Assembly (NCBI GenBank): GCA_000091205.1
Contig: AP006497.2
Length of the DNA stretch: 64,000 bases
Strand: one strand, 5' to 3'
From: Cyanidioschyzon merolae
Lineage: Eukaryota
Part shown: positions 2,962 through 64,000 of the stretch, piece by piece
How positions within the stretch are numbered: position 1 is the first letter of the stretch
How the letters are laid out: each line of letters begins with the position of its first letter
Made by a program: the position numbers and the translations under genes
Notes under the pieces: generated by a model
Databases searched by the model: none
What the model was told of the DNA's origin: nothing
What the model saw: the letters and a program-made list of their open reading frames with translations, nothing else

Positions 2962-3159
2962 CAGGCGAACACTCTCCCAGCAAGCAAAGACCAGGTGCAC
3001 ACTATTGCGCACTGCACCGCGCAGCGAGCTTTCAACTGGCGTCCGCTTCTTGGGCGATTCGCCTCCGGCACGCGCGGCAGGCGGGTGCAGCTGCGAGGGC
3101 GCGGCCAACGGATCAGCGACTCGTTGATAGACTTTCACCTGAATTGCGTTCCATACGCA

Positions 3160-31290: not shown

Positions 31291-34200
31291 GGCTGCGTTG
31301 CTGCATCCGGGAATAGAATAGGACCATATTTGCCAACAGGCTGTAGCAGCGATTTTCGCAACCAGCTACTCGATGAACTTTACTGAAGCCGCGTATTCAT
31401 GCGGCATCAGAGTGGAGCTCACGCACCTCGTATATCGCAAGGCGATGCGACTCGGATACAAAAATGACAGAGAAAAATGAAACTTCTTCCTTTTGATAAA
31501 TGGGATGTACGCATTATAGTTTGCGCCTTTTCTAATTGTCCTCAACATCAGCCTTTTGCAAGCTTATTCTTCGACCGTTCTTTTCTTCTATATCCGGCTT
31601 TGAACACTTCTTTCTCTCCTTTCCCTCCGGTTTCGTCGTCAGCAGTCCATGGGTGAAGGACGCAGGGGTAAAGTACCGAATTCGCAGCTTCCGGCTGTTA
31701 TTATTCATGCATTTCATGCACAGGTGGCAGTTGCTCTTGATCGATCGCTTGCAGTCGGCAAATACTTCGGAGACAGCCTCTGTGCGCCGGCTGCAGCTGT
31801 GCCAATGGATTGCGGTTGAGCGTTCCCACTCGTCCACCATATGTCGTCCACGGAGTGCCACCCGGTGGCACCTCAATGATTGCTTTATCCTCGGTATATG
31901 TCCATGAAGGGTAAAGACGGCTCCTCAGGAAACCGTACACAGTTTCCCGGTCCCGCAACGTGCCCCACGCTCACCTGCTTCCTCAGGGCGATCCTTCGGA
32001 AAGTTCCTTGTCCGCTGCACGCGTAAAGCTTACACAGTCCCATTTGATACAGAATTTTTGGAACGCAATGTTGTCCATGATGAGAGGGGCATCAAATGGA
32101 AAGTCTGGGCTCATAGTCGAGTCGTGAAAATTCGATTCGTCTACGCTCTTATCGCGCAAAGCTGAGACGCACTGTCGACTGGAACAAATGGCTGCAATGA
32201 CACAGACCCGGGCCCAGGACGCTTTTCCACGCAATAAGAAGAGAAAAGTGCATCTGATAGCATACTCTGTAAGGGTGGTATGCTGCTGTCGTGTCCTGTT
32301 TTTGTCAATGTGCGTGAAGAGCGGAGGGTTCGTCTTTCGCTTAGAATCATGTATTTGAGGAAAAATTTTAGTGAACTTGTGGCATGAGTTTATGACGAAA
32401 TCTCCAAGAAACGGCGTCAGGCTTTTTCGTTTTCAATGCACTGGTGGTGATCGCTGCGCCAACGACGCTGCTGCAAACGGAAAGGGCGAAAACCTGAAGA
32501 ATGCTTGATTTTTTTAGTGCATACTACGCGTAAGTAGACGAGAAGAGAGGTGTCTCGTTCGTACGCATCGGACAATATCATCTGTCATTTTACGAACGCT
32601 TGCCCGCAGGTGTCACAAATCACCTTGGTGCAGGTGACGTTCGGAATTCCAGCTCCAAGGAGTCAAATGTGTCACTATGAAAAACTGACCGAAGATACTG
32701 GGAGCATACGTAAATCGGTACGCCTTCACTGCTGCACTTCGATTTTTGAGGTTGCGCAAATGAAATAGCTCTGAAAACTATCAAAAGGCAGTAAAAGAAC
32801 GAGTATATCCATGTTCCATTACAATCTGATACGCGAAAACGCGGACACATCGCTGTCAACAACTGCAGACGAGCCGAAGCACCCGGCGGGTGCATCGCTG
32901 CGCGCCAAATTCCTCTGCATGCGCGTGCGGGATTTGTTCTCCCGAGCGAGTGCCTGATATCTGCCGCTGCAACGCGGTGGGACTTTCCCAGAGGGAGCTC
33001 GCTTCCTCTGGAACTGAGGCTCTCGAACCTTGAGGATCATCAGAGATCCTTGCATAGAGACCTTCTTGAATTTGAGCAGCAGATTCGTGGCGATCTGGCT
33101 GCGTTGGAGGGCGCAATGCTTGGTAAATTTCGCGCCTTGCTTGCCTTTCTGAAGAAGAGCTCCGTTGTCGGTGCTTCTAGCCAAACGGAAGCTGTCGGGG
33201 CGTCGAGAGTCCTGGCCACAATTCGACCTGCTTGAGAGATGCGGTTGGGAACGTCCGTTACTGCACGCGAAGCGCTGAAGCGCAAGCGGAAACAGCGCCA
33301 CCGAGCGGTGTGTCGACACCGTGTTTCACGTGTTCAGGCCAACTAGATCGTGATCGATATTCCCGTTGGATTTGAGAGTTTCGCCTCGCACTGGCTCGAG
33401 TGGAGCGAGCTCGTGAGGAGCTCGCGAAAAGACTGGACATGGTCGAAACCACGACCGCAAACCTAGTGCACATGGTCGAGTCAAGAGCCCGTCGTTTCGG
33501 CCCAGGTGGCCGCTTCGCGGCAAGCGGCGACGCCTGGAATGAAATATTCCAAAAGGACGGAACGAGCTCGCGCGTTCAGCTGTACCTATTGCGTATGATT
33601 GACGGTGTCGAAGAAAAAATAGCAGGTATGGTCCGCGACCAGGCAACATGCTTTCGACGACCATGAGGTGTCGACTGCAACAACCAAGATGCGATAACGA
33701 GTCACACGAAATCAGGCGCCTTCGAACGACGAAATCCTGAGACATTACAGTTTTTTACGGCAAAAATCTATTACTGCAGCGTTGTGTACGTGGTTATATC
33801 GAATAATGGAACATTACGGTCGATTAGCAATTACCGAGGAAAATTTTTCACGGCGTACGTGCAAGGCGCTTCAGACGTTCTGGATAACTGACCATACAAT
33901 TGAAATGCGTTGCTCCGTGAGAGAATCCGATGCTCGCTCCGCAGGCCAAGAATCCTTTTCACCGCACTTCTTCCGCATTGGAGCAGAATTTCCATATGGA
34001 ATACTGAACGACTCCCTCGCAAGTATGCATGACAGAAAGCCGCTGAACGATCCGGAAGCACATGACTCTTCCTGATTTTGATCGAGGCGTTTAAGCCGCG
34101 GTGTGAAAAGTGCCTGCGCACGTTTTAGCTGGTGGAATCAGACCAGAATAATCAGGTAGTTTTTGGTTTCCTTGCAATCTGACACTCATTCAGCCTACCG

Positions 34201-37199
34201 TACACTATATCGTAAATCCGTATCTGTTTCAAGCTCTTTTTCTGTATCTGTTTCTGTGTGCACTCGTGCCCGTGATGTGTGAATCTCACTCCAAGCTCAT
34301 CGACAAGAATCAAACAGAATCGATCCCCGCACTAGTTGTAAGCTTTCGTGTGCGGAGCCGGCATGCAACATTTGCGCGCTAAAGCACGTCCAGCGCCGCA
34401 AGATACCACCACCGAACGACGTGACATATATATATCTATCCATTTCTAACTTGCAGTGCATTTTGGTCGATGCACGCTTCTTGCATGCGCACAACTGACT
34501 CTGCTTGCGAACCAAGCACGCTCCCTTGTACTCGTGCAAAAAATCGTCCGTTTGAGTCAGTTGGACTCTACGGAGTATAAGTTTAACGCAGACCGATCTG
34601 CTCGATTCGATGCCCAGAGCGTCGAGATGGGTTCCGACCCGGCCACTCGACACGCTGGTATATCTCCTGACGTCCTGCGTACCCAGCTCTCGCTGGTACG
34701 GAGGTCTGGGAAAACTGAATGCCTGCACCAGCTTTCCTTTCAGGTCTTTGGGTTCGGCCCCTTGGTTTGGAGATGCGGCGCTGGTTTTGACGCCTTCCAA
34801 CCTGGGATCCACGCCAAACACAAACGCTTGCTTTTCGCTTACCTTGAAGGGTTGAAAATGAGTGTCGTTACTCGACTCAGGCTTTGTCCTCAAGACTTTG
34901 ACAAAGTACACGTAGACTGATATTCCGTCGGCCTCCACCGTCGCTGTGGATTGCTTTTTATATTCTCCCTGTAAAGGAGAAAGCTCCGATTCGCTCCATC
35001 AATGCTGCTCGACGTTGTTCGAATGCTTCATATTTGCTCTTAGAAACCGGCCGTGGCTCACCGACAACGCCATACACTGGACGAGTGTCTACGATGAGCA
35101 TACGGGCTCTGATGAAAGATATCCCAATAACGTCGCATAGACACTTCAGGAAGCCATGGAGCTGGGATTCACAGAGCAGTTGTGCCATGCTCTTGCGGGC
35201 TCTGTTCAGGAACACTTCGAAACGCAAAATCCGAGGAATGTAGGCATCCCGTTTCACCGATCGTTTGGATATCACGTCCGCCAGTTCTGGGGAAAGGCTA
35301 TCACAATGAGTTGGAACTGTACGAAGCTACCCATATTCTCGTTGAGACATCTCTTCTGAGCTCGCTACCATTTCGAACGTTCCAGGTATCAGCTCTGGAC
35401 ATGATTTAATCGACGCACCCGCGATCGTTTTCTTCAGTATTCACCTTTCTGAACCAGTAACGTGAGGCTACGATACCCACAGTGTGATCCTAATGAAGCG
35501 CTCTAGACTAAACCGCATCTCACTCCGGTTTTTGAGGTCTGCTTGATACTTTTTCAATCTGGTTCTATAGACTTTTATTCCGATCGATGCGGCACCGCGA
35601 AGACTCGGGCATGCTGGAAAGCGTTCCAGCGAATCTCGGATCCTAGTAACAGGCAGTGATGCATCTTTAGCCCCGGGAGTCAGCAGTGCTCCAACATGAA
35701 GGCTAGATCGAAAATTTCGAGGGGAATATAGACAGCTCGTCGTCCTACGTCCCGTACTCGTGCGAAAATCTGTTTGACGTGGTGCGTCCAGGCAAGGGAA
35801 ACTGGGCTAGGCTTCCTCAAGAAAGCTGCTACGCAATCCCTACTGGCGCCATCTGTAATATGTTTTGGAATATTCTCTCCAGTGATGAGATTGAATACGG
35901 AGCCATTGAAAGCGCTCTCAGACTGATTTTGCGGCGCCGACATTATTCCCTTCCAGTGAATCCTCATCGTCGTGGCTGGAGGGTCTTTCTCTTCTTTGCC
36001 GGGTGGTTTCCTCTTCTTCTCCTTCACACGGTGGAATGCCATGGATGTGATTGCGTTACTCCATATCGATTTGGTTCCCTTGAGATTCAGACACATGGGG
36101 AGAACGACCGGTACAAAGCTCGCCTTCCCTACGAATCTATCCACAGCTATCAAATTTCCTTTTGTCACTATCTCTGTTGCGAGCATGTCCACGATCTGTA
36201 GTGCTTTTTAGCGTCCCATCACGCATAAGAGCGGAGGAGTGGCACGCTGGTTCGTGGATGATACAGGGTAAAAACGACTTGAGAGAGAACCGTGGCATGG
36301 ACGCGAACGACTCCTGAATTCATCCACAAGCGCACATGCGACGTTAAACAACATCGATGACGCCCTCAACTGCAATAAACTGGAGAGAATAGGTTGAAAC
36401 GAAATATAGCTCAACGCCTGTCTCAGCTGCATGTCGTCCTTTGTGTTTTGTAAAGGAAAGCGGCCATTTCGAAAAGTGAGAAAGACTAGTGAGGCGAAAA
36501 GCCCCGAAGTGCGTCGGCGACGAGTCCAATATGTGATGATGGTATCCTTTTTAGATTTTGTACACTATCACATGATTCGAATGCCGGTTGGACTTCTATT
36601 CCAGGAGTGCTGGCTTGTTTTGTGGTGATGGACATCGGGTTGACTTCTTCCACCGTCGAGTGACAAGCAGAATATTTCTCCCGCATGAATTCTCATCGAG
36701 TGAGTCAAACACCATTCTTTGCTGTCATCAGCGTTCACATTTGAGTACGAGATCCATTCTCTGTGCTTCAACACTTGACGGTCTCCTGTGGAAGCACAAT
36801 TTTCTCTTTTATCTATCCGTATCTGTTCATTAGCGGTCGATTCTGCGGTAGAGATCCTCCATATCCTGTGCCTTCTTAGATAATAATTCCAAGAAAACGC
36901 AGTGAATAGAATGAACCAACAAGGTTAACAACATGAAGGTAGAGTTTGATTAGTTCTGTTTTGGTGTAGAGCGTTTTGGATAAGGACTACGAGATAGGTG
37001 GCTCATCTACCAGGTGCCTGAAGAATTACTGAGTTGTTCATTTCGAACCTTTCGCGCCAAAGCTGTCAATGAAAGAATAAACTGCTGCCGCGACCGTTCT
37101 CCGTATTAGATGATATATTCCTTATGTTGAGAGCATTCGATAAAAACAAAAACAAAAAGTTCATGCACGTACGGGTGTTCAAGGGACACGCTAATTTCA

Positions 37200-38550
37200 T
37201 AGTCCTTCAACTCAGGATTTTTCACGCCCGCAGCAGTGCATAGCAGGAGATCGAAATCACGATACAATGTATTCTATAGACCATTGATCACTTGCCTGTA
37301 AGATATATACTCCTTACAGAACAGTGCCTGGAGGACTCCATTCCTCATTCATCTCAGGCATATCACAGTACTCAGATGAACGAGAAACACTCAAAGAAAC
37401 AAGAACAAGGGCTTCGCGTCGAAAACCGGTATTCTTAACAGGTGCTTGCGGTCAATGGTAGAAAACGACCCCTTGATCATATATTCCTGAAGGCAAAAGC
37501 GATGATAGTTGCCAGGATGGGCGTCTCTGTTTCTCAACAGCTTGTTCGTTTGGCCCTGAAAACACTTGGATACACTCGCGAAAAAGATCCCTATTTCACG
37601 CACAGCCATCGTCCACCAAAGTCGCGACGACAGCGTTCCCGGAACTTCGTTATCCATATGAAGCAGCGGGACGTCAATTCATCCTCGTCGCCGAGACTTG
37701 CTTCAGACGATACGGGTGGAGCGTATATGGGTATTCGAGGAGCAGGGCGGCCGTTGATAATACGGCCGAACTCGTGGAGACCGAGGACGTTATCAACTGT
37801 TCTGGCTGCAGTGGATTTACATGGCGGCCCCAGTTTCGCTCGTTGAGAAGCCTCATGCAATAGCACCAGCTTCGCCTTATCATTGACGACTTTTCCATGA
37901 CGTGTAGCGACGTCATTCTACTGGACGACATAGCATTTGGCCATTCCCATCGCGTTCGATTTTTTGGAGATCCTGTCCGGGTAGAGCTGCTCTTCAGTAG
38001 TCCGTTCTCTATGTGGTTCAAACGCATCGAAGAATGGTTTATTCTACTGAAACGTAATGGTCGCTCAACTCGTCGATTCGCTGAAGCGCTCAGTTCGGAG
38101 ACATCGGGACACATTTTTGTCTTTTTCCCGCAAGTGCTTTTCCCTCCGGGAAGGTCCTTACCTAAGGGCATCAAGAATTATGTTCATTTCAAAATGCTAT
38201 GGGATGAGTTGGGGTGTACACTTCAGAAGTTCGATATCGAGAAAAGCCAGCGGAACGCTTCGGCTATTGAAAAGTATGGAGAGCTGACCGAGCCGCAAAT
38301 GGCACCGAGGACACGAGTTCGAGGACTCTTTGCATTGGCAAGTTTAAGCGGCGTCATGAAAAGAATTAAATTCGTACGTCGAGACCAGAACGCCGCCATC
38401 AATATCGGGAGATGTCCTGTGCTGAACACGAGACCCGAGGAGCTGAGGCGAGACAACCTTGTGGGGTAGCCTCTCGGGCTCGAGTTGTACAAGGAAAAGC
38501 TGAAACTGATAGAAAGAGGCTCGTCAAAAAGGGATGGGAGGCATCTGCAC
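37200..38550 (+). mobile_element. Composite element copy: a mariner/Tc1-like transposase pseudogene (HTH plus DDD core) read through into an internally deleted TnpB/Fanzor-like C-terminal module.
   Basis: The left-end nucleotides 37215-37440 align with 62130-62365. ORF 37442..37846 has an HTH (MIVARMGVSVSQQLVRLALKTLGY) and the first acidic motif (LASDDTGGAYMGIRGAGRP). ORF 37897..38469 begins ILLDDIAFGHSHRVRFFGDPVRVELLFSSPFSMWFKRIEEWFILLKRN, the second D and D/E motifs of Tc1/mariner. It continues in frame to EKYGELTEPQ...VRRDQNAAINIGRCPVLNTRPEELRRDNLVG, with the NAAINI at 38391-38406. The terminal GGGAGGCATCTG lies at 38535-38546. Confidence 0.6.
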
Positions 38551-39245
38551 AGGAGTTTTCATTTACTCTTCTTGGGCGTTGGACATAGTTTTGATTCACT
38601 GGCGATGATATGTCTAGTATAACTCTTTCGCTACACGCATGTTCCGAGAATTTCCGCGAATCCGGTTTTGTCCGTGATCAATTTTATGGGATCAAAATAC
38701 ATTGGTCAGATAAGAGAGCTTTTAGTTGGCTGCTAATGCTGAAGGTTCATTTGATCTCTTGAATGCAGCAGATTAGATGCTTATTTCATAAAACCTCTGC
38801 TGTAGATCTTAATTTCGGTGGGTTCTTGCGATGGAAATAGTGGAGTATGTTGTATCGAAACGGTATCCGCGGAGTGCCCAGTTGAAAGCTCGACGCTTGA
38901 TGGTAAGTTTTCGACGCTTTGAATTCGGCAGCTAGGGTCGTGAAAGAGTTTGTGCTGGAGAGAAAGCGCGCATATTCAGCGGAATGCAACGAGGCACAAA
39001 ACGCCCAGAGCCGACCATTGCAGAGATCGGAGGCAACTGAGCGTGAACGTGTTTATTCCACAAGCGCCTCTGTACTACAGCCTCAGGTGAGCGCTCGCTG
39101 AATTGCTCACTGGCGGCAGCATCTCATCGTATTTAGATGCCGTTGGATCGCAAGCGGGTCGCAGCGCCAGAATTGACTCCCAGAACGACGCCCAACTTGA
39201 GAACCTCATTTTGATTCAAGTTCAACACGGAAACTTTATGTACGG

Positions 39246-42325: not shown

Positions 42326-42490
42326 AATCCACATACACTCTTGTCTTGGGACGTATAGTCTCTGATCTCTGCCCTATCAAGTGGCACCAGAGGTTGTAGC
42401 GCATGCAAATCCACATACACTCTTGTCTCGGGATGTATAGTCTCTGGTCTCTGACCTATCAAGTGGCACCAGAGGTCGTAGCGCATGCAA
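42326..42490. repeat. Tandem direct repeat, two units of about 82-83 nt.
   Basis: Unit 1 (42326-42408) and unit 2 (42409-42490) are about 90% identical (AATCCACATACACTCTTGTCTTGGGACGTATAGTCTCTGATCTCTGCCCTATCAAGTGGCACCAGAGGTTGTAGCGCATGCAA). The repeat lies about 370 nt 3' of the EF-G gene. Confidence 0.7.
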
Positions 42491-46829: not shown

Positions 46830-47075
46830 GAAATCCAGGATGTACGGTACTGCAGGGTGGACAAGCTTTCAAATTCGGGGCACGTTGCTGTTTTTCAAAG
46901 GATCAAACGCTGGATATCCAGTTGTCTAGGTCCAAAACCGGTCCAAATTCGGTGTACATCGCTGTTGTTCAAAGGATCAAAAGCTGAATATCCGGTTGTT
47001 TAGGTCCGAAACCATCCAAATTCGGTGTACATCGCTATTTTTCAAACGATCAAAAGCCGTGTATACAGTGATGCA
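46830..47075. repeat. Minisatellite, about 3.3 tandem units of about 74 nt.
   Basis: Unit 1 is TTCAAAGGATCAAACGCTGGATATCCAGTTGTCTAGGTCCAAAACCGGTCCAAATTCGGTGTACATCGCTGTTG at 46894-46967. Unit 2 at 46968-47041 is about 88% identical. Partial degenerate units lie at 46830-46893 and 47042-47075. The overlapping ORFs 46693..46929 and 46697..46987 are artefacts. Confidence 0.75.
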
Positions 47076-47573
47076 GGTAAAGCATGCCTCGAATCTGGTT
47101 CGCTTTGCTGTTCTGCAAACAGTCATTGATTGTGAGCAAGTGCAACAGCGTCGCCTCGGATAGACGCTTACGAAAGTGTCGTCCTTGATCTGAAACTGGG
47201 TTGGCATACGTATCGTAGACTTGCCCGGATGCGCCAGCGGGGCGCTCCCATCGACGGCATCAAGCTGCATTTAGTGAGCGTACGCTTTCGTCTGCATGAT
47301 TCAGGACTGGTGGATACGTTTGGGTATTCCCTTCCAAACGTCCTCAGCGACTTTTTCCATGAATACGTCCTAGCACATGTGCTCAAGAGGGCAGCCCCGA
47401 AGGGTCTGGCTAGAACTGCTGCACCTCATGCGTGCATGTGCCGCCGCCGAGCTCCCTTTCGCATACCCGGGAGAGAAGCCACAAACACACACACCGTTAT
47501 CGTCGTGCTTTTCGTTGCTCTCGTCAGCATCTTTGTAGCTTTATACAGTGCTGTCACCATGCAGACGAGCAAT

Positions 47574-49163: not shown

Positions 49164-50040
49164 AGAGGCAGTTTATTGAGAGTTATAGCGCACAAGGCGT
49201 GTGAAAACTGGCGGAGCGCACCGCAGGCGTCAGCGATGCGAAACAGCCGGTAAAGGACGCAGATGAATTCGTGGCCGCAGGGACGCGCAGCGCCATGGCG
49301 GCACGCTCGGACGCTGTTGCTACCAAAAGCAGGGGAAGCTCCATGCCGCAGGCCCTGGAGGGTTCCCCCAATGCAGCCCAGATGATGCACACCGTGCAGC
49401 TAGATGCACTCTTCTCCCATGCAGCATAGTCTTATCTTCCAGAGGTACATCGCACCGAAGCTGGTGTGGCGTCCTCGGTTGCACCAGCTGCGGGGCGACG
49501 TCTGCGAGAAACTCTTCAGTGCGTACGATTGTGGAATACTGAACGCACCTGGTTTCCATTTGCCAAAATGTCAAGACTGTCCAGGTATAATTCATGTGAA
49601 GAACAGGATATCCGTTTGGTTCATTCGAGGCTTGTCTCCGGAACGGCTTCGAAATGAGACCAATCATCGTGATCGGGGCAGATCTGTGGTCTCCATGTGA
49701 ATGGCGATACCTGCGGGCGGGGCTGTTGCAGCAGCTTGCAAAGAATGAGACGGTTCCGTTTTTGTAAATGCGTGTACAAGACGGGTCTCTCGCAGAGCTC
49801 GAGAACAATATCGCGTACGCTATCGTAGCGTGGTTGATCATGCAGGCATCGTGCGGATGCACTTCGCCCATCGAAAGACTTCGCTGCGCATATCCGTGCC
49901 GGGCAGGGGAGCAGAATGCTATCGATACTGGCTCGGTGTCCTCATTTGCTGCTTCGGCTTACGGAGGCAGTAGCGAATTGTGCACGGGATCGATGTTGTC
50001 GAAAAGAGCGCCTCTGCGATGAGGCGACCTGAGACATTGA

Positions 50041-50200
50041 ATTGATATCGGGCAAATCCATTCCCAGCGGGCAACTGGAAGTTCGACGCTCGGCAGCGGG
50101 ATCTCGTGGAAGGCAGTACCCGTAGCAGCGATTTGATATCGGGTAAATCCATCCCCAGCGGGCAACTGGAAGTTCGACGCTCGGCAGCGGGATCCCGTGT
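50041..50200. repeat. Tandem direct repeat, two units of about 68 nt separated by a 23-nt spacer.
   Basis: Unit 1 at 50041-50108 and unit 2 at 50132-50200 both read TTGATATCGGG[C/T]AAATCCAT[T/C]CCCAGCGGGCAACTGGAAGTTCGACGCTCGGCAGCGGGATC[T/C]CGTG, about 94% identical. Confidence 0.7.
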
Positions 50201-51299
50201 ACGAGAAGGCCAAAGCACATGAGCACCCCAACGGGACAAGTCGCGAGCCACTCGCACGATTTGCCGCTGCAGCAAGGTCAGCGAATCGAAACAGAAGACC
50301 ATGGATGGGCGGAAGCTGCCCAACACAGCCAGGAATGTCTGCGTTTTTCTCCAGAAAACTCTAAAAGTTGCAAATCTCAGAACGGTTTGCGTATTTGTTG
50401 AACGCTTGGACGCCAACACGGATACGGGACGATTTTCGAGAGTTTCGCCTCAACGCATGTACTGGAGCCTCTGGACGGACAGCATATCCGCGCGAAGAGA
50501 TTCCATATGTTTCCAGAGACAAAAAGTTTACGTTGATCGGGGATCCCATATTGCGGAATGGGTATTGGCTGTCGGGAAAGTGTCCATCATCCTGCGCTAT
50601 ACTCCCAGATTCCATCACCTGTTCTCGGGTGTACTGGTCGTTTTCTACGTTCGATTTTGCACCGAGCCTGCGGTGAGAACCCGCCTCAGCGCTTATACCG
50701 CTAGAGCAGAAGCATCACGGAGACCGGACTGCTTTGTCATACCAGTGAGGGCGGCGACTCGAGGCAGGGTGCACCCCGCACGGAATCCGAGGACAGTATC
50801 ATTCTGGAGCCGACAATCTGCGCAGGCAGACGTACTGCCTGCGGCACCGCAAAGAGATGTGCTGGGAGACCACGTCGACTAGGGCGATGGCTGGGTGCAT
50901 CCGAACCACTCCTGTTCCCAGAATAAACCTGCATTGCGGACGAGCTGCTCAGGTCTCTTCACAGCACTAGGCACTGGGAAGAGCACGACGCACTTACATA
51001 GCAGACTCGGTCGGCACGCCGGACATTCCGCCTCGAAGGTAAACTTTCCACAATACGGAAACCTTTTCCCCCTTTTAACGCCTACTGTGAAGGTCGAACG
51101 AAAGTATCATCGAATTGCCAGTTAGTGTTTAGCTTCTGTTGTTTTTTCTATAGTGCGGTCGATACGCGCACCTCGATTCCTGGCAGGCATGACACACGAG
51201 ATGCATCTCGCAGTTGATGAGAAACGCGATCCTTTTTTCGCGTGTTGCTCTAGCGTACAAGATGTATTTGCCTGAGCGTAATACCAAAGTAAGTTTCCC

Positions 51300-53600
51300 A
51301 ACTGAATTGTGTTCCATTCCCAAATTAGTGTATTCAAGTGATTTTTCTCGGTTTATAGGAGACGCGTTCGAAGCGCGTTCATCGTCAGAAATGGAAAATA
51401 CCAGAGCAAGTTATGGACATGGAAGTCGAGGATCCTGGAGGGCCGGTGTCGCCGGCTGCCGGAAAAATTAGGGAAAACAGTGGCGAGCAAAGAGGAACAG
51501 AAGAAGAAGAAGCCAAGCCAGGAGGACCGACATCAATGACTGCTAGAAAGACAACAATGCGACGAGTTGGTTGTGACAGCCTGTCTTCTTGGACATATCA
51601 CAGATCCGTGCAAGCCAAAGTTGCAAGCGGCCATCAGAAATCGTGTCATTTCGTACTCCCTGAGTATTCGAAATGCTTCTTCAGGACTAATGAATTTGGT
51701 GAGCAAGATATATCGCAGCGTGACAATTACGAAAACAGTCGAGATTCCGGAGGAATTTATCTACAAGAGCTTCATTTGTCACCTGATGGTTGGCACAAGG
51801 GAATCATCGAGGAGAAATGGGGGAGTGCACACCCTCCACGAAACCGACGGGGCAACAAAGTACCACAAGAGCCTGAAGAATCATATGACCATGAACCTCG
51901 AACGTTTCATGATACGCGCAGTGTTTGCGCCATACCCGGGAATCTCTCGCAAAGGAATATGGGCGACTATCAATGGCATCACGAACGATGGTCATCATGA
52001 AGATGAGATAGAATTCATCGACAAGAAGACGTCACACAGGAGCAAGAATGAAGCTTCTGTAATCCGTGCGCGTATTCAAGAGCGTCGTGGGTTACTGGGC
52101 GGGCGGATCCAACAGAAAAGATATCAGAGTTGAAAAAAAATATGCAAAGATACTATCGCCTCATCCTACGGTATTTCATGTTCCTGGATCGAGAACTCGA
52201 ACGCAAGGCAGAGGTGACGTTAAGTGGGGGAAAATGAAGAGTGGGAGAGACGGAAGGCTCTCCTAATAGGAGAGCGCTTCAAAGTCGTTCCGTTGTGGAA
52301 CATGAAGTCACATTTTGTGACTACCGACTCCAGAGTCCTTTACGGTATCATGGAGGTGATCAGTTCGGAGTTCGATGTAAGGAAGACAGAGTTCTCTGGT
52401 GAAACCCGGGAACGAACTGGAAGAATATCTTCGATTTCAAACGTCTGAAAGTAAGCAAACAAAAGGTATTCACTGGTATGATCGAAACAGATGGGGTAAC
52501 CATGTGTGTACACTATCGGTGCTTGAAGGTGGATCGCCCAGTTCCGCTCGTGACGAAGCATGAAGATGAGAAGGAGGCGGATCCTTCGACGCAGAAAGTG
52601 CAGGATAACGACTTTGTTGTTGGCGCGGACCCCGGGGAATATGAATATCATAACCAACGCAGCACCCAAGCGTGCGGAAGGTGGCATTGACGGTACCTTA
52701 CGTCAGAAAGACATGCGACTTTTCAGGTTTTCGAGAGCGAAATGCTATCTAGAAACGGGTAGAATGAATGCGAGGAAAAAAATCGAGAAATGGAATGCAG
52801 GAATGAGAGAGCACCTGGAAGCTGTGAGCGATGTGACGAGCCACGGAGCGGACGTTCAGGCTTTTCTGAAATTCATGGAAGTTCGCATATGGCGCACCGG
52901 GATGCGCTGTGGGAGGAGTATGCCAAGCCCCGGTGGGCTCGTTTGCGAATGAATCTATACGGTGGTAAGCAGCGGGCATTTGCGAATTTTTTCAATGAGT
53001 TGAGCTCCCTGAAGGAGGACGAGAGTCAGAGGCTGGTTGTAGCATACGGAGCAGGTCGCTGGATGATCCCGAACGAGACTACGCCAGCTCCAAGGACAAG
53101 AACGTACAAAGAGTGCGCATAGCGTTCCGGCACGATACCTGTAGATGAGTTCCGAACATCGTATACACACCATGAACTGGGGTGTATACTCCAGAGGGTG
53201 TAGATGGAAAAGTGTCAGCGGAGTCCTGAGGATATAGCAAAGTACGGAGCGCTGACGGAGGAGCAAATGGAAAGGGGGCGAAAGTTCGAGGACTTCTCGC
53301 ATTGGTACGTACAATCAATGGCAAGAAACGTATGGAGTTTGTGAACCGAGGCTTGAACGCCGCCATCAATATCAGGAGATGTGCGGTGCTGGAGACGAGA
53401 CCTCCAAAGCTGACGAGAGAGAATTTTGTGGGGGAACCTCTTATGGTCATATTATACGGCAAGAAGCTGGAACCACTCGTAGGTTGCCGGTCCAAAAAAA
53501 CCGGGAGGCGTCTGCACGTCAGTTGGACGCTTTTCGTCTGGGGCGCCGGTCGCCGCCACTTTTGTACACCGCCGGCGGCTGCGTTTTTCTTTAGAACGGC
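51300..53600 (+). mobile_element. Longest copy of the TnpB/Fanzor-like element. It holds a coding scaffold of about 2.2 kb for an OMEGA-type RuvC nuclease, fragmented across eight overlapping frames, and has no adjacent mariner transposase.
   Basis: ORFs 51413..52000, 51567..52133, 52066..52266, 52224..52448, 52478..52690, 52560..52952, 52790..53122 and 53302..53661 are all on the plus strand in shifting frames. A candidate RuvC-I motif is [10 protein letters not shown] at about 52610. RuvC-III reads FVNRGLNAAINIRRCAVLETRPPKLTREN at 53361-53375. The 5' leader TATGGACATGGAAGTCGAGGATCCTGGAGG at 51411 and the terminal GGGAGGCGTCTG at 53504 are shared with the other copies. Confidence 0.6.
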
Positions 53601-53661
53601 CTTCGGTGTTAGCGTTGGCACTAGCAGTTTATCATGTTCAGCTACGCTGGAAACGCTTTGA
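51413..53661 (+). pseudogene. TnpB/Fanzor-like RNA-guided endonuclease gene. The reading frame is disrupted by seven or more frameshifts. It is either pseudogenised or interrupted by short introns.
   Basis: See the mobile_element entry at 51300-53600. The C-terminal D-x-NAAINI plus a conserved tail match the IS605 OrfB/TnpB/Fanzor RuvC-III motif. No single ORF longer than 195 aa survives. Confidence 0.5.
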
Positions 53662-55037
53662 CCCGTCTTACATTTAGCAATGGAATAGAACGTGAACATC
53701 GGAGCGAGTTGACGGGTAGCAGTCGCTCCAGACGGTCGCACCGCCAGGTAACGCTGCCGCTGCGGACGTACGCAGCACGTACGCGCGCTTATAGCTCCGC
53801 CGATGCTACCAAATTTTTGGATGCGAGGAAGTTACCGTTTTTGAGAGCAACGAAAGTGATCAATTGCTGCTCGAGCTTGTCGATGCGGGACTCGGGCAGC
53901 AGTGGTGCAACCGGCACCGCCCCTGTTGGCACCAACAGAAACACAGCAGCGCAGCGGGTCGGACGCGCTGCAGTTGACTGGCAGTCTCTCGGTTTCGGGT
54001 TCACGCCGACCAACTGCTACGTCAAAGCGGTCTGGAGAGAGCAAACTGGGACCTGGTCTCCTGTAGAGGTCGTCCCATACGGACCCAACGGTGAAGCTAC
54101 GTTCCCTCTGCACGTCGCGTCGACGGCCCTGCACTATGGACAGTCCATATTCGAGGGCCTCAAAGCGTTTGCATGTGCCGACGGGCACGTTCGATTGTTT
54201 CGTCCACAGGAGAATGCCCGCCGTCTCGAGCGCTCGGCCTTGCGTCTGAATATGCCAGTGGTACCAGCTGCGCTTTTCCTCGAGGCGGTGACCCGATGTG
54301 TATACGAAAATCTGGAATTCGTGCCCCCGTATGTCGAACAAGGCGGTGGCGGATCACTCTATGTACGCCCTGTTCTGTTCGGATCTGGAGGTCGCATTGG
54401 CCTCGGCCCAGCTGATGAGTATACCTTTATGGTGCTGGTGGTGCCGGTCGGCAACTACTACAAGGGCGGCTTATCGCCAGTCACAGCATACATATCCACG
54501 AATTATGATCGAGCTGCGCCCCGCGGTGTGGGTCACGTCAAAGTGGCAGGCAACTACGCCGCCGACTTGAAACCGAGCATGGAAGCGAAACAACGAGGCT
54601 ACCCGATCAATCTCTATTTGGATGCGCGTGAGCAAAAGTTTATCGAGGAATTCGGAACCAGCAATTTTTCTGCGGTACGCTATCTAGATGAAAACGGAAA
54701 CCGATATGTATACGTTACACCAGACAGTCCCTCGGTTCTGGAAGGTGTCACCAACAAAACGCTCATGGAGCTTTCACTAGATGCAGGGATGAAGGTGGAG
54801 CGACGACGCATTCCTGTCGAGGAGTTGGCAACGTTCGATGAGGTGTTCGCCTCGGGAACCGCTGTTGTGATCACAGCTGTGGACCAGATTGTATATGGTG
54901 ATCAGGTCATCGGCATCGGTAAGCATCCCGGCTCTGGTCAGGTAGGACCTGTGGCGCGCCGACTCTACGACACCGTGCGCGGGCTTCAGACGGGGCGATT
55001 GCCAGACCGGCACGGATGGACGTATTTGGTCGCCTGA
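53634..55037 (+). CDS. BCAT: Branched-chain amino acid aminotransferase (BCAT, PLP fold type IV), probably mitochondrial. The conserved domain starts at about aa 107. Alternative start Mets (for example 53883) would avoid overlap with the upstream repeat's right end.
   Basis: BCAT signatures include GFGFTPTNCYVKAVW, LHYGQSIFEGLKAF..DGHVRLFRPQENARRL, YVRPVLFGSG, the PLP-lysine region, and GTSNFSAV..EVFASGTAVVITAV. Confidence 0.85.
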   Translation: MFSYAGNALTRLTFSNGIEREHRSELTGSSRSRRSHRQVTLPLRTYAARTRAYSSADATKFLDARKLPFLRATKVINCCSSLSMRDSGSSGATGTAPVGTNRNTAAQRVGRAAVDWQSLGFGFTPTNCYVKAVWREQTGTWSPVEVVPYGPNGEATFPLHVASTALHYGQSIFEGLKAFACADGHVRLFRPQENARRLERSALRLNMPVVPAALFLEAVTRCVYENLEFVPPYVEQGGGGSLYVRPVLFGSGGRIGLGPADEYTFMVLVVPVGNYYKGGLSPVTAYISTNYDRAAPRGVGHVKVAGNYAADLKPSMEAKQRGYPINLYLDAREQKFIEEFGTSNFSAVRYLDENGNRYVYVTPDSPSVLEGVTNKTLMELSLDAGMKVERRRIPVEELATFDEVFASGTAVVITAVDQIVYGDQVIGIGKHPGSGQVGPVARRLYDTVRGLQTGRLPDRHGWTYLVA

Positions 55038-58531: not shown

Positions 58532-59954
58532 CCAGCAGCGTGATATAGGCTCTAGCGCCCACCAGGTCGGAACCGGCAGTAACTAGAATCCCCAGTACCT
58601 CTCTGGTGCTGAAGAGCGATAATCCGATTCCGGTACCGGGGGCGATCAGAGCGCAGCATTTGCTGCTGCCCGAGTCGAGGATCTCCTGCAGCAGCGCATG
58701 CGGCACCAAACCTGTTCACAGCGAAATGCATGCAGTATTTATGGGAAGGTAACCCCGCGCTCCGATTCCATCGGATATCACGAATTACTGCAAGCTATGG
58801 TGAAAACAGCTTGCGGTAAGGGAACGTCACGTACGGCGTTTGAATATCGGCATGATGTACAGGCTGAGTCATCGCATGGTGCACCAGGCGTGCTTTTTTC
58901 CGCACTGGTCGTGACGTCATTCATTGGCGCCGTGTGCATGGCAATGCATGCGTACACACAGGCGCGCATTTTCTATATACATAGACTCGAATGCGACACA
59001 TGCGTTCACTACTGATCGCTGTATACAGCGAGCACCAGCAGCAGCACTGGACTTGAGAGCGCCTAAAAAGAATAGAGACTAATCGCTAACTAGCTGCAAC
59101 TGTGCCGGAAGTACAAATACTAACAATTAAGTAGCTACTCGATAACAATTCCGTGCCACCTTCACGGTAAGCTTTGAAAAGGGAGCATTATCCCGTAATT
59201 TCGAAAGTTTACCTCATAGGCGGAGAGTCCCACCAGCCGGACGAATATGTCGGACCTGCGCTCCCTGCTGCTCCCAGACCCGAGTGCTGTGGCAAGACCT
59301 GTACAGATCGTCCATCACGCATTTCATTCACGGACTAGGAATGGGTAGGTTGCATCCAAGTGTCGCCCTGGTCGCTGTCGGCTTGTGGTATAGCGCTTCG
59401 CGTTGCCGCTGGCAGTAGGTCTGTCTGAGTAGCTTGCATGCACCCAGCATGATTATGGATCCCGATCCCGCACCATGCAAACTACACCTCCAGCCGATGC
59501 CCTCATCGATACCGTAAAGCGGTTCTGTCGCCCTAACGCATCTTCCCCAGCGGTATACGCGCTATTGCAGGTGCAGCAAGGCAGGCACTCGGCGCACGCT
59601 AGAACCTACGGAACGACAAGCGTATCCGAAAGGAACTCGCCGAAATGGAACGTGAATGCATGATGCATCATGATGGACGAGTTTCCGATTACCAATATCC
59701 ATCCCACAAACTGACATCCATGTACAAGTAAACGTTCTGACGAATGAGAAACATAGTCTTGAAAATGCTCCTCGACGGCGCCTGTGTCCAGATGATTCCC
59801 GCCAGGAGTGCGCAGCGCCGCAGGCGATCGTGATCCATCCTGCCTTGGACCATGGTATTCACTTTCCGCAGGCGGGGTAGTGTGTGCACAGTTTCAGGAG
59901 AGGCTGACGCACGTAGACGTTGTTTAGGGGAACTTTTGGCCGCGTTTAGGCCCT

Positions 59955-62129: not shown

Positions 62130-63640
62130 CCTCTGTTGCGTCTGGTAGAATGCTTTTCGGCAGTGCCGAACATGAGATCGAAATCCCCATGAAATATACC
62201 GTATAGATCGCAGACGAATTGCCTGTAGGATGTACGTTCCTTACTGAACAGTGCACAGAGTACTGCATTCCGTATTCAGGTCCGTCGTACCACAGAACTC
62301 AGATGGTTGAGGAACACGGAAAAAAAGAAGGATACGCGTTCCGCGTCAGCAACCGATATTCTAAAAGACTGCTTGCGGTCAATGGTGGTGGACGACCCAT
62401 TGATCACCGTACGAAAAGCAGAAAGCGACGATAGTTGCTATCGCGGGCGTATCTGAATCTCGCCAGCTTGTCGCTGTGCTCCTGAAAACACTGAGATGCG
62501 GTCGTAAAAAAGAATCCTAGTTCATGCACGATCAACTTCTGCTGAAATCGCAACTACGACACAGTCCCTGCAAGGTTACGATCGATATGAAGCACAGGGA
62601 CGTCGGTTCCTTTTTGCAGTCGACGAGACCTGCATCGAACGAAACCGTCGGCGCGTATATGGGTATTCGCAGCTAGGGAGCCCGTTGCGTATACGGATGA
62701 AGTCGAAGAGAACGAGGATATCATCTGTTCGATCTGCAGTGGATATATTTGGCGGCCTCAGACGCTTTCACGGAGAAGGCTCACGCAACGGCACCAACCA
62801 TTATGTCGAATCCTTGAGGACTTTTCCCTTGACGCCCAGCAACGCCCCTCTACTGGACAACGTGGCATTTCACCATTCTCTTTGGCTTCGAGCTTTTGCC
62901 GATTCCCGCGGGGCAGATCAGCTTTTCATTCCTCCGTACGCTCCGTGGCTCAACCGCATCGACGGAGTGTTTTCTATCGTGAAACGTAATGATCACTTTA
63001 CAGAGCGCATTGATGAATCCTTCAGGACACGGTGACACACCAGGGCACAGTACCTCGTTCGTCCACGTGTGCTTCTGCCTCCGGGACGCCCCACTCCCTG
63101 GGTCATATTGAAGTGCTTTCATCAAAGGAAATAGAACATCTATGGGACAGGTATGGACATGGAATTCGGGAATCCTGGAGGCTCGGTCTAGCCGGGTGTC
63201 GGAAGAGAAACGGAAACATCCTCTTCTCGCCAACCAGCAAGCGAAGAAGAGCAAGTCGTGAAGAAGAAGAAGAAGACGAGGAAAAGCGGAGATAGGCGAG
63301 GAAAGTTGGTTGTCCGATGTGACGATGACGGGACTGTAGTGGCGCAGAAGGCGCAAGTTCTAGGAATCCTTGCATTGGTACGTTCCACCAACGGTATTGC
63401 AAGCATGGCGTTCGTAAACAAAGCCTTTAACGCTGCTATCAATATCAGACGATGTGCGGTGCTGAAGACGAGACCCGCGGAGCTTACGCGATCTAAATTT
63501 GTATGGCAGCCGCTAAGGCTCGAAGTGTGCAGGGATAAACCGAAACCGATAGCAGGTGGCAGGTCAAAATACGCTGGGAGGCGTCTACACGTCGGTGTAG
63601 ATACAGACACGCTATCGTCGTGAAGCTTTTCAGGTTTCAT
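62130..63640 (+). mobile_element. Composite element copy: a mariner/Tc1-like transposase pseudogene followed by an internally deleted TnpB/Fanzor-like module. Its architecture matches the 37.2-38.55 kb copy.
   Basis: The left-end nucleotides align with 37215-37440. The HTH fragment is LLAVNGGGRPIDH at 62365. The DDD core in ORF 62685..63035 and upstream reads FAVDETCIERNRRRVYGYS ... PLLDNVAFHHS ... LFIPPYAPWLNRIDGVFSIVKRN, with D-to-D spacing of about 35 aa. The 5' leader TATGGACATGGAATTCGGGAATCCTGGAGG at 63152 is followed by a GAAGAAGAAGAAG tract. ORF 63258..63623 reads MAFVNKAFNAAINIRRCAVLKTRPAELTRSKFVWQPLRLEV...GRRLHV. The terminal GGGAGGCGTCTA lies at 63576-63587. Confidence 0.6.
62380..63035 (+). 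pseudogene. Mariner/Tc1-superfamily DDE(D) transposase pseudogene, frameshifted and short.
   Basis: The catalytic triad context is VDETC (first D), LLDNVAFHHS (second D), and PPYAPWLNRIDGVFSIVKR (third acidic residue, D). The 35-aa spacing is closest to mariner DD34D. An HTH-like segment lies upstream. The reading frame breaks between the HTH and catalytic parts. Confidence 0.55.
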
Positions 63641-64000
63641 CGATAAGGCATGGACATGCTCGTTGGTGGCAGGGAAAACCTCGCGAGACTTGCCGTGCGC
63701 ATGCTGGTGCGATCCGCTACTGCATGCGCCAGCAAGCACTTTATGAGCGCACTCACGGTCATGAGATCACGGAAGACCAGGATCCGCTACGACACGCGCC
63801 AGCAAGCACTTTAGAAGCGCACTCGCGCCCATGACAGGCCGTCATAGATCCGATTTCGACACCACTGGCGAGATTTCACGGGAATCGCCCAACTGGCTCA
63901 GGACTCGATGATCATCGTATCCGTGGATGCGGCACCAGTATCCACCGTGGATGCCGTCGTTGGTGCCGTCTGTGCTCGGAAGCCCATGTACTCTGCGTAC

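What the first reader, a model, noticed from the sequence alone, without database searches (positions are those of the whole stretch)
51300..53600. Near-full-length TnpB/Fanzor-like (OMEGA-type) nuclease element in a eukaryotic genome, fragmented across eight reading frames
Eight consecutive plus-strand ORFs tile a coding region of about 2.2 kb.
- The region ends in the RuvC-III signature of IS605-OrfB/TnpB/Fanzor nucleases: ...FVNRGLNAAINIRRCAVLETRP... at 53361.
- A candidate RuvC-I GxDxG segment, [10 protein letters not shown], lies at about 52610.
- Between the two, TnpB-like basic/helical segments resembling lever/REC regions are present.
- This is the only copy in the window that keeps the nuclease body.

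Fanzor proteins are eukaryotic RNA-guided DNA endonucleases. A lineage-specific, possibly recently active family here would be a candidate programmable nuclease system.

The frame breaks mean one of two things. This locus may be a decaying pseudogene. Or the gene may carry short spliceosomal introns, as Fanzor genes often do.
Basis: partly seen in the sequence, partly recalled or inferred. Interest (0 to 1): 0.85.

Follow-up and report, generated by a model that had tools for sequence, protein, structure and literature searches.

The report
Dead copy of known Fanzor1 transposon
This is a complete but mutationally dead copy of CMe-1A, a Fanzor1 (eukaryotic TnpB-like nuclease) repeat of the red alga Cyanidioschyzon merolae that was published in 2013, so it is real but ordinary.

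Summary
Window 51413-53538 (+) is a collinear remnant of a 734-aa Fanzor1 gene.

The window is from Cyanidioschyzon merolae 10D, shown by exact protein matches. The locus is an end-to-end copy (50514/50518-53600, about 3.09 kb) of CMe-1A. CMe-1A is the only Fanzor1 family listed for this alga by Bao & Jurka in 2013. Their published 3,169-bp consensus aligns over positions 5-3168 at 80-86% identity.

The family is truly Fanzor1:
- A 60-sequence family profile hits the solved Fanzor1 proteins PpFz, SpuFz and GtFz (E 9e-26 to 4e-15).
- An AlphaFold model of a family member (pLDDT 92.8) matches SpuFz over its full length (TM 0.71-0.75).

This copy is dead. Against the published CMe-1 protein it carries:
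- 7 frameshifts and 3 in-frame stops
- 29 consensus residues with no codon, mostly a 51-bp deletion
- a Gly in place of the RuvC-III catalytic Asp
- a lost stop codon

The frame breaks are 1-2-nt indels with no inserted sequence, so they are not introns. Three independent strain assemblies share the insertion. In them it varies 3-4 times faster than the flanking genes, which fits neutral decay.

Verdict: right family, pseudogene, already known. It is not a candidate active nuclease. Interest is low.

The parts
50514..53600 (+). Complete copy of the CMe-1A repeat element (about 3.09 kb).
   Evidence: The published 3,169-bp CMe-1A consensus aligns from consensus position 5 to 3168 with window 50518-53600. 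Identity is 79.7% over consensus 5-1344 and 85.7% over 1396-3168. Nineteen copies in metagenome loci begin their homology within a few bases of 50518. Conservation among 52 copies collapses just after about 53603. There are no terminal inverted repeats.
50514..51148 (+). 5' non-coding module equivalent to the separate repeat TE-N2_CMe.
   Evidence: Bao & Jurka report that the 5' 635 bp of CMe-1A equals TE-N2_CMe. Solo copies in this window align to consensus 7-635 (59739-59109, minus strand) and 90-630 (30959-30424, minus strand). Many metagenome copies of the Fanzor module lack this module or carry a different one.
51149..51412 (+). Start of the Fanzor module and leader upstream of the start codon.
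   Evidence: The homology shared by all copies, whatever their upstream module, begins here. In other copies the consensus reads AT(C)GCGCTCGGTGAGCGCACC, a small palindrome; in the window it is degraded to GTGCGGTCGATACGCGCACC.
51413..53538 (+). Fanzor1 pseudogene, matching CMe-1 residues 1-734.
   Evidence: From a frameshift-aware alignment to the published CMe-1 protein:
- Identity is 77.7% over 705 codons.
- Frameshifts lie at 51473, 52101, 52229, 52413, 52637, 52890 and 53276.
- In-frame stops lie at 51537, 53120 and 53201.
- 29 consensus residues have no codon, mostly through a 51-bp deletion near 51844.
52628..52630 (+). RuvC-I catalytic Asp codon (GAC, in GADPG), retained.
   Evidence: The column is invariant in the 60-sequence family alignment (D388 in P0069 numbering).
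53147..53149 (+). Relocated RuvC-II catalytic Glu codon (GAG, in VDEFRTS), retained.
   Evidence: The column is invariant (E556). The canonical RuvC-II position reads VVAYGAG, which is the 'rearranged catalytic site' described for Fanzors (PMC10530073).
53350..53352 (+). RuvC-III catalytic Asp replaced by Gly (GGC; family GAC).
   Evidence: In the 56 intact motif instances found in the six-frame translations of all fetched loci plus the window, Asp is present in 45. 'RGL' occurs only in this window.
53539..53541 (+). Position of the family stop codon, lost here (TGG instead of TAG).
   Evidence: Consensus ORF end and alignment of 3' ends.
53458..53600 (+). 3' end of the ORF plus the 59-nt 3' UTR up to the right end. 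By analogy with other Fanzors this is where the guide (omega/fRNA) scaffold is expected. The terminal hairpin remnant lies at 53582-53598.
   Evidence: - The family consensus for this 143-nt stretch folds at -56.8 kcal/mol, z = -2.63.
- The window version folds no better than shuffles, z = +0.57.
- The terminal hairpin keeps its position but changes sequence between subfamilies.
- Covariation over the whole structure is weak.
- Conservation is no higher than at third codon positions.
- There is no Rfam match.

Best explanation
The locus is a full-length but inactivated copy of CMe-1A, the Fanzor1-carrying repeat family of Cyanidioschyzon merolae.

**What the intact element is**
- It has a variable non-coding 5' module. 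Here that module is TE-N2_CMe-like.
- It has one intron-less gene for a 734-aa Fanzor1.
- It has a short structured 3' end that finishes in a hairpin at the right boundary.
- It has no transposase gene, no terminal inverted repeats and no recognisable target-site duplication.

**How the intact protein most likely works (inferred from homology)**
By homology with SpuFz, PpFz and GtFz, the intact protein would be an RNA-guided DNA endonuclease. A single RuvC active site is built from the Asp of GADPG, the relocated Glu of VDEFRTS and the Asp of NRDFNAAINI. It would be loaded with a guide RNA transcribed from the 3' end of its own gene, through the right end, into flanking DNA.

**State of this copy (shown)**
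- The reading frame is destroyed by 7 frameshifts and 3 stops. 29 consensus residues have no codon, mostly through a 51-bp deletion.
- One catalytic residue is lost (Asp to Gly).
- The stop codon is lost.
- The predicted 3' RNA fold is lost.
- Between strains the sequence drifts at the intergenic rate.

It is therefore a molecular fossil with no nuclease function.

**What is shown and what is inferred**
Shown here: identity with CMe-1A, homology to Fanzor1, the list of disabling mutations, and the neutral drift. Inferred only from homologs: RNA-guided cleavage by intact family members and the position of the guide RNA.
For: **Host**
- Five window proteins are exact matches to C. merolae 10D entries BAM81500-81511.

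**Identity with CMe-1A**
- The published consensus aligns end to end at 80-86% identity.
- The published description matches: about 150 copies at about 80% identity to the consensus, about 3 kb, no TIRs, 5' 635 bp equal to TE-N2_CMe.
- The window shows a 631-bp 5' module with solo copies elsewhere and no TIRs.

**Fanzor1 homology**
- A family profile hits 9cf0 PpFz (E = 9e-26), 8gkh SpuFz (3e-21) and 9cer GtFz (4e-15).
- 37 of 60 family members hit PF07282.
- An AF2 model with pLDDT 92.8 matches SpuFz at TM 0.71/0.75 and E about 1e-19. PpFz and GtFz follow, then Cas12f.
- The Asp, Glu and Asp columns are invariant in the family alignment.

**Inactivation**
- Frameshift-aware alignments to the closest metagenomic homolog and to the published CMe-1 protein list the same kinds of lesion.
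- The Asp-to-Gly change is documented.

**Not an assembly artefact, and neutral**
- Three independent assemblies, 99.1% identical, carry the same insertion and the same three stops.
- Variable sites are 1.79 per 100 nt in the Fanzor module, against 0.43-0.69 in flanking coding sequences and 1.48 in intergenic DNA. They include indel polymorphisms.

**RNA**
- The consensus 3' end folds with z = -2.63, and the window version with z = +0.57.
Against: - Nothing argues against the identification itself.
- On function, no member of this clade has been tested biochemically, so RNA-guided cleavage by intact copies is inferred.
- The clade lacks the C4 zinc finger that the 2013 definition lists. None of 49 members has two CxxC pairs between the Glu and the Asp.
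- The guide-RNA region is supported only by position, a modest folding z-score and a hairpin that changes sequence between subfamilies. Covariation is weak, and conservation does not exceed that of third codon positions.
- The high-confidence structural model is of a distant member, P0069, only about 27% identical to this copy. The model of the closest homolog failed, with pLDDT 46.7.
Confidence: 0.95

Rival explanations
1. The gene is functional, and the frame breaks are short spliceosomal introns.
For: Fanzor genes in other eukaryotes have acquired introns (PMC10530073). A GTAAGT...TTTATAG stretch lies at 51290-51359, upstream of the start codon.
Against: - All seven breaks are 1- or 2-nt offsets in an alignment that is otherwise collinear with two intact references. 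No sequence is inserted at any break.
- Three in-frame stops sit inside well-aligned protein sequence.
- The published consensus gene is a single exon (the supplementary table lists '734 (1)').
- From general knowledge, not tested here: C. merolae has only about 27 intron-containing genes.
- Several of the indels are polymorphic among strains that are 99% identical.
- The GTAAGT-like stretch is not conserved in the homolog L001.
Confidence: 0.01
2. The gene is intact, and the frameshifts are sequencing or assembly errors in the reference.
For: None specific. Some breaks lie near short homopolymer runs.
Against: - Three independent metagenome assemblies (L086, L087, L088) carry the same locus at 99.1% identity.
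- They share all three stops and most of the frameshifts.
- Only four indel sites differ between assemblies, and no assembly restores a full frame.
Confidence: 0.01
3. The NAAINI-containing segment belongs to an unrelated protein family, and the resemblance to TnpB/Fanzor is superficial.
For: - Pfam gives no significant hit for the frame-corrected protein or the family consensus.
- The narrow 11-sequence profile and single-sequence phmmer find nothing in the PDB.
- Pfam files the family's precomputed hit under DUF8286.
Against: - The 60-sequence profile hits three solved Fanzor1 proteins at E = 9e-26 to 4e-15 over most of their length.
- The full-length fold matches SpuFz at TM 0.71-0.75.
- 37 of 60 members hit PF07282.
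- Bao & Jurka classify this very family as Fanzor1.
Confidence: 0.01
4. Although the protein is dead, the copy has been co-opted by the host. For example, its 3' end might serve as promoter or 5' UTR for the branched-chain aminotransferase gene, whose ATG (53634) lies 33 nt beyond the element's end. Alternatively it might still supply a guide RNA in trans to intact Fanzor copies.
For: - The element ends at about 53600 and the BCAT ORF starts at 53634.
- The insertion is fixed in all four assemblies examined.
- Free-standing guide-RNA copies are described in Chlamydomonas (PMC10530073).
Against: - The last 143 nt have lost the consensus fold.
- They carry several strain polymorphisms: 53467, 53478, 53494 and 53581-53584.
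- No expression data are available.
- Fixation among strains that are 99% identical is expected for any old insertion.
Confidence: 0.05

Closest known systems
CMe-1A / CMe-1 Fanzor1 element of Cyanidioschyzon merolae (Bao & Jurka 2013, Mobile DNA 4:12; consensus in Additional file 2)
   Same: - Same host.
- The DNA aligns from end to end at 80-86% identity.
- The protein is collinear over all 734 residues.
- It has the same TE-N2_CMe-like 5' 630-bp module.
- It has no TIRs.
- Its divergence from the consensus is typical of the family.
   Different: This copy is an inactivated member. It has 7 frameshifts, 3 stops, a 51-bp deletion, Asp to Gly in RuvC-III and a lost stop codon. My alignment of 52 copies suggests the right end may extend 3-8 nt beyond the published consensus end.
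Structurally solved Fanzor1 nucleases: SpuFz (8GKH, 9CEU-9CEZ), PpFz (9CF0-9CF3), GtFz (9CER-9CET)
   Same: - The full-length fold matches (TM 0.71-0.75 to SpuFz).
- The RuvC Asp / relocated Glu / Asp triad is the same.
- The canonical RuvC-II position holds Gly.
- The host is eukaryotic.
- The gene sits at the 3' side of a mobile element.
   Different: - Sequence identity is only 13-16%.
- The clade containing CMe-1 lacks the CxxC...CxxC zinc finger that all three solved proteins keep.
- Neither nuclease activity nor a guide RNA has been shown for this clade.
Bacterial TnpB of IS200/IS605 (e.g. ISDra2) and Cas12f
   Same: - The RuvC nuclease core is the same, with more distant Foldseek hits to Cas12f at E about 1e-3.
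- The element has sub-terminal or terminal hairpins.
- It has no TIRs and no evident TSD.
- The guide RNA is expected at the 3' end.
   Different: - No TnpA (Y1 HUH) or any other transposase is found in the element or recurrently next to 80 copies.
- The RuvC-II Glu is relocated.
- The N-terminal region is much larger.
- The host is eukaryotic.
MCi-2 Fanzor1 family of Mucor circinelloides (Bao & Jurka 2013)
   Same: Copies share a nearly fixed 3' part that encodes Fanzor, but carry different 5' regions. Its TE class is also unresolved.
   Different: It is a different host and sequence family. MCi-2 copies are young (99% identical), whereas CMe-1A copies are old (about 80%).

Membership tests
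CMe-1A repeat family (C. merolae) | DNA similarity to the published consensus over its whole length | tested here: met
   Consensus positions 5-3168 align with window 50518-53600, at 79.7% and 85.7% identity in two blocks.
CMe-1A repeat family (C. merolae) | Host is Cyanidioschyzon merolae | tested here: met
   Exact matches of five window-encoded proteins to C. merolae 10D entries.
CMe-1A repeat family (C. merolae) | The 5' roughly 635 bp is shared with the independent repeat TE-N2_CMe | tested here: met
   Solo copies at 59739-59109 and 30959-30424 align to consensus 7-635 and 90-630. Solo modules also occur in metagenome loci.
CMe-1A repeat family (C. merolae) | No terminal inverted repeats | tested here: met
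   No inverted pair joins the two ends.
Fanzor1 | Significant sequence-profile similarity to established Fanzor1 proteins | tested here: met
   The family profile A2 hits PpFz at 9.4e-26, SpuFz at 3.4e-21 and GtFz at 3.7e-15. Window pieces match the same profile in order.
Fanzor1 | Fanzor1 fold (WED/REC/RuvC/TNB architecture) over the full length | tested here: met
   An AF2 model of member P0069 (pLDDT 92.8) matches SpuFz at TM 0.71/0.75 over about 640 columns. This was tested on a family member, not on the broken window copy.
Fanzor1 | RuvC-I Asp | tested here: met
   GADPG, with GAC at 52628-52630. The column is invariant.
Fanzor1 | Rearranged RuvC-II: inert residue at the canonical site and a conserved alternative Glu next to the [TS][TS] motif | tested here: met
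   VVAYGAG at the canonical site. VDEFRTS has its Glu codon at 53147-53149. The criterion comes from PMC10530073.
Fanzor1 | RuvC-III 'RD' Asp | tested here: not met
   The window reads NRGLNAAINI (GGC at 53350-53352). The family consensus and 45 of 56 motif instances in the fetched loci plus the window have Asp. The feature is met by the family and lost in this copy.
Fanzor1 | C4 zinc finger between the [TS][TS] motif and RD (2013 definition) | tested here: not met
   The CMe-1 lineage has only two Cys (plus His-His) in this stretch. None of 49 members of the wider clade has two CxxC pairs. The clade was nonetheless classified as Fanzor1 by the authors of that definition. I treat this as a clade-level variation, not an exclusion.
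Fanzor1 | Continuous open reading frame | tested here: not met
   7 frameshifts and 3 stops.
Fanzor1 | Associated guide RNA (omega/fRNA) encoded at the 3' end up to the right end | tested here: inconclusive
   The consensus fold has z = -2.63, and a terminal hairpin is kept with different sequences. However, covariation is weak, there is no excess conservation, there is no Rfam family, and no RNA data are available.
Fanzor1 | RNA-guided DNA cleavage | not testable with these tools
   This needs biochemistry on an intact family member.
IS200/IS605-type or Helitron-type (HUH) element | HUH transposase (TnpA or Rep) encoded in the element or in an autonomous partner | tested here: not met
   No recurrent non-Fanzor ORF occurs next to 80 copies. 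The recurrent ORFs are alternate frames of the element itself or host genes. A partner elsewhere in the genome could not be searched for.

The most novel reading that the evidence does not exclude
This concerns the family, not this dead copy. The CMe-1 lineage belongs to a large, uncharacterised Fanzor1 clade that lacks the zinc finger. The clade has more than 3,600 cluster representatives, and Pfam files it under DUF8286.

Its elements have a fixed 3' end that closes with a hairpin, interchangeable 5' modules, and no transposase. Two readings remain open:
- The rare intact copies in thermoacidophilic Cyanidiales could be active, heat- and acid-tolerant RNA-guided nucleases.
- The element could spread by a hairpin-dependent or Fanzor-dependent route that has not been described for eukaryotic transposons.
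Probability: 0.15. Interest if true: 0.55.

Novelty: already known. Interest (0 to 1): 0.15.

Why it matters
For the scan, the value is negative but clear. It should not be pursued as a new programmable nuclease.

Three points are useful to others:
- **Detection.** Pfam models alone miss this Fanzor1 clade. A family profile or a structure comparison is needed.
- **Clade feature.** The clade lacks the canonical zinc finger.
- **Boundaries.** The right boundary, and the start of the part shared by all copies, are now defined from many copies. The shared part begins with a small palindrome and the element ends in a terminal hairpin. This may help to classify an element whose TE class was left open.

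Tried and rejected
- **Pfam on single sequences.** The hand frame-corrected protein gave no family at E <= 1. The published CMe-1 consensus gave only PF07282, at E = 0.51.
- **Narrow PDB searches.** The 11-sequence profile A1 found nothing, and phmmer with CMe-1 found nothing relevant. Only the 60-sequence profile worked.
- **First AlphaFold job.** The closest homolog P0001 with 11 sequences gave pLDDT 46.7. The model was discarded and not searched.
- **RNA structure.** RNAalifold with default settings predicted no consensus structure for the 3' end. A ribosum-scored structure had covariation barely above the shuffles. I therefore do not claim a proven RNA.
- **Rfam.** The scan of 50400-53800 gave only a chance CRISPR-DR hit at E = 0.97.
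- **Partner transposase.** A search among ORFs flanking 80 related loci found nothing.
- **Empty site.** I looked for an orthologous empty site to define the target sequence or a TSD. All syntenic contigs (L086-L089) carry the insertion, so there was no result.
- **Upstream intron.** A short intron or programmed frameshift between the ATG and the main frame seemed possible, because L001 shows the same +1 offset. I rejected this: the published consensus is continuous there, so both copies simply carry an indel in the A-rich run.
- **Short fragments.** I first read the short 3'-end fragments in the window as deletion derivatives of this copy. Their 3' tails show they belong to a different, diverged subfamily.
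Full report
**1. What is in the sequence**

Plus-strand reading frames between 51.3 and 53.6 kb are fragmented. Joined by hand, they give a protein of about 650 aa. That protein finds 69 homologs, the best at E = 3e-260 with 96% coverage.

A frameshift-aware dynamic-programming alignment to the closest homolog, P0001, is collinear throughout. Its breaks are single 1- or 2-nt offsets and in-frame stops.
- GADPG, with the Asp codon at 52628-52630
- VDEFRTS, with the Glu codon at 53147-53149
- NRGLNAAINI, from 53344

**2. Whose genome**

Five large ORFs of the window are exact matches to Cyanidioschyzon merolae 10D proteins BAM81500-BAM81511, on a 902,900-bp chromosome. The window is gene-dense and intron-poor.

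**3. It is Fanzor1**

Single-sequence tests fail:
- Pfam gives nothing for the frame-corrected protein.
- Pfam gives only PF07282, at E = 0.51, for the family consensus.
- An 11-sequence profile and phmmer find nothing in the PDB.

The family is large, however. A profile search of 1.84 billion representatives finds 3,636 proteins at E <= 1e-3 and 511 at E <= 1e-30, most of them 600-700 aa.

A 60-sequence alignment has the RuvC-I Asp, the Glu of DEFRTS and the Asp of RDxNAA as invariant columns. The profile built from it hits three solved Fanzor1 proteins:

| PDB entry | Protein | E-value |
|---|---|---|
| 9cf0 | Parasitella PpFz | 9.4e-26 |
| 8gkh | Spizellomyces SpuFz | 3.4e-21 |
| 9cer | Guillardia GtFz | 3.7e-15 |

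In addition, 37 of the 60 members hit PF07282, Cas12f1-like TNB.

With that alignment AlphaFold2 gives a confident model of member P0069, with pLDDT 92.8 and pTM 0.89. Foldseek against the PDB returns SpuFz in several states (E about 1e-19, TM 0.69-0.75, about 640 aligned columns). PpFz and GtFz follow, and only then Cas12f, Cas12o and Cas12k.

The canonical RuvC-II position reads VVAYGAG, and the conserved Glu sits in DEFRTS. This is the 'rearranged catalytic site' described for Fanzors (PMC10530073).

One departure stands out. None of 49 members has the two CxxC pairs of the zinc finger, whereas all three solved Fanzor1 proteins keep them.

**4. It is a known family**

Bao & Jurka (Mobile DNA 2013, PMC3627910) list one Fanzor1 family in C. 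merolae, called CMe-1A. Their description reads:
- about 150 copies
- each about 80% identical to the consensus
- about 3 kb long
- no TIRs
- TSD undetermined
- 5' 635 bp equal to the separate repeat TE-N2_CMe (about 70 copies)
- a few copies still intact

Their supplement holds the 3,169-bp consensus and the 734-aa CMe-1 protein.

The consensus aligns with the window from consensus position 5 to 3168, at window 50518-53600. Identity is 79.7% over the first 1,340 bp and 85.7% over the last 1,770 bp, with a 51-bp deletion between them.

Two solo TE-N2-like copies in the window align to consensus 7-635 and 90-630. They lie at 59739-59109 and 30959-30424, both on the minus strand. No terminal inverted repeats are present. 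The finding's interval therefore covers only the coding part of a complete 3.09-kb element.

**5. This copy is dead**

Against the published CMe-1 protein, the window covers residues 1-734 (51413-53538) at 77.7% identity. It carries:
- seven frameshifts: 51473, 52101, 52229, 52413, 52637, 52890, 53276
- three in-frame stops: 51537, 53120, 53201
- 29 residues with no codon

The RuvC-III Asp codon is GGC (Gly). Asp is present in 45 of the 56 intact motif instances found in the fetched loci plus the window. The family stop codon TAG reads TGG here.

No break has inserted sequence, so introns are excluded. The published gene is also a single exon.

The lesions are not assembly errors. Three independent metagenome assemblies, 99.1% identical to the window over 9 kb, carry the same insertion and the same stops.

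Across those four sequences, variable sites are distributed as follows:

| Region | Variable sites per 100 nt |
|---|---|
| Fanzor module | 1.79 |
| TE-N2 module | 1.42 |
| Intergenic DNA | 1.48 |
| Three flanking coding sequences | 0.43-0.69 |

Four of the variable sites in the Fanzor module are frame-changing indels. The copy is drifting neutrally.

**6. Anatomy of the family from 80 related loci**

*Coding state.* Only about 5 of 82 copies keep a stop-free stretch of 650 aa or more.

*Left side.* The left boundary of the composite is sharp at window 50518. Many copies start only at about 51150-51210, and at least four different upstream modules precede the shared part. The shared part begins with a small palindrome, GCGCTC-GGTG-GAGCGC, in the consensus of other copies.

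*Right side.* Conservation among 52 non-redundant copies continues about 60 nt beyond the stop codon and collapses just after a terminal hairpin. That hairpin keeps its position but differs in sequence between subfamilies:
- CGTCGTTCGA / TCGAACGGCG
- AACGTTTTTC / GAAAGGCGTT
- CCGGCGAGCACGCGC / GCGCGTGCTCGCCGG
- CACTGGCG / CGCCGGTG

*RNA fold.*
- The consensus last 143 nt fold with z = -2.63.
- The window version folds with z = +0.57.
- Default RNAalifold predicts nothing.
- A ribosum-scored structure shows only weak covariation: 0.125 against 0.113 in shuffles, and 17 against 13 double changes.
- The 3' UTR is no better conserved than third codon positions.
- Rfam has no match.

A guide-RNA scaffold here is therefore expected from what is known of other Fanzors, but it is not demonstrated.

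*Partner.* No transposase-like ORF recurs next to the copies.

**7. Mechanism**

The intact ancestor most likely encoded an RNA-guided RuvC endonuclease. Its guide would be transcribed from the 3' end of the gene across the right boundary, as shown for SpuFz, ApmFz and others. This is inference by homology.

How CMe-1A multiplied remains open. It has no transposase, no TIRs, variable 5' modules and a hairpin-closed 3' end. The present copy can do none of this.

**8. Verdict**

The pseudogene alternative is the correct one. The element is already described and this copy is inert. Novelty: already known. Interest: low.

Noticed in passing
window 18904-20754 (+) and 34014-35752 (-): These are two further, much older Fanzor1 remnants. 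They are 24-37% identical at protein level to family members and span most of the protein. The 34-kb remnant still reads VDELGVRFTHH ... HRGLNASIKI. Like the main copy, it has Gly-Leu where the family has Asp-Phe or Asp-Leu. Among the motif instances found in the fetched loci plus the window, 'RGL' occurs only in these two window copies. This may be coincidence or gene conversion.
   Followed up: partly
window 3136-3649 (+), 7925-7453 (-), 38204-38559 (+), 62775-63596 (+); also L023 ~5569, L044 ~9163: These short repeats keep only three parts: a piece of the leader or start region (similar to 51299-51464), the last 50-120 codons of Fanzor (RuvC-III onward), and a 3' tail that differs from the CMe-1A tail. 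They form a separate, diverged subfamily of 0.8 to about 1.4 kb (the copies ending at 38559 and 63596 share similarity over about 1.4 kb). They could be non-autonomous derivatives that keep the putative guide-RNA region.
   Followed up: partly
window 30424-30959 (-), 59109-59739 (-): These are solo copies of the TE-N2_CMe-like 630-bp repeat that forms the 5' module of CMe-1A. They account for the inverted repeat I1.
   Followed up: yes
metagenome loci L006-L085, regions upstream of the Fanzor module: At least four or five unrelated upstream modules precede the same Fanzor module in different copies. They include a TE-N2 type, a 'GGACACGTGTCC...' type and a 'GTAATGTAAC...' type. The 3' end is fixed and hairpin-closed. 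This resembles the MCi-2 family of Mucor and is not explained by any standard transposon class.
   Followed up: partly
window 53600-53634: The element ends only about 33 nt upstream of the ATG of the branched-chain aminotransferase gene (53634-55037). That gene's 5' UTR, and probably its promoter, must therefore lie inside the element's 3' end.
   Followed up: no
L086 vs window 52319-52321 and 52886-52907: In one strain the orthologous copy differs from the others by tight clusters of substitutions, 9 changes plus a 2-nt deletion within 22 nt. This looks like a short gene-conversion tract from another CMe-1A copy.
   Followed up: no
family-wide (proteins P0001-P0217): Pfam's precomputed annotation files these proteins under PF26935 (DUF8286). 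The results here show that DUF8286 proteins are Fanzor1 nucleases of a clade without the C4 zinc finger. The local Pfam copy does not contain that model.
   Followed up: partly
window 50039-50199, 46870-47086, 42326-42489, 261-416, 63711-63834: Several short tandem duplications of 70-82-nt units lie in intergenic regions. They are unrelated to the Fanzor element.
   Followed up: no
L001 6001-8259 (protein P0001): The closest 'intact' homolog is itself slightly damaged. Its ATG is in a different frame from the main ORF, through an indel in an A-rich run. A TAA also truncates the last 36 codons relative to the CMe-1 consensus.
   Followed up: yes
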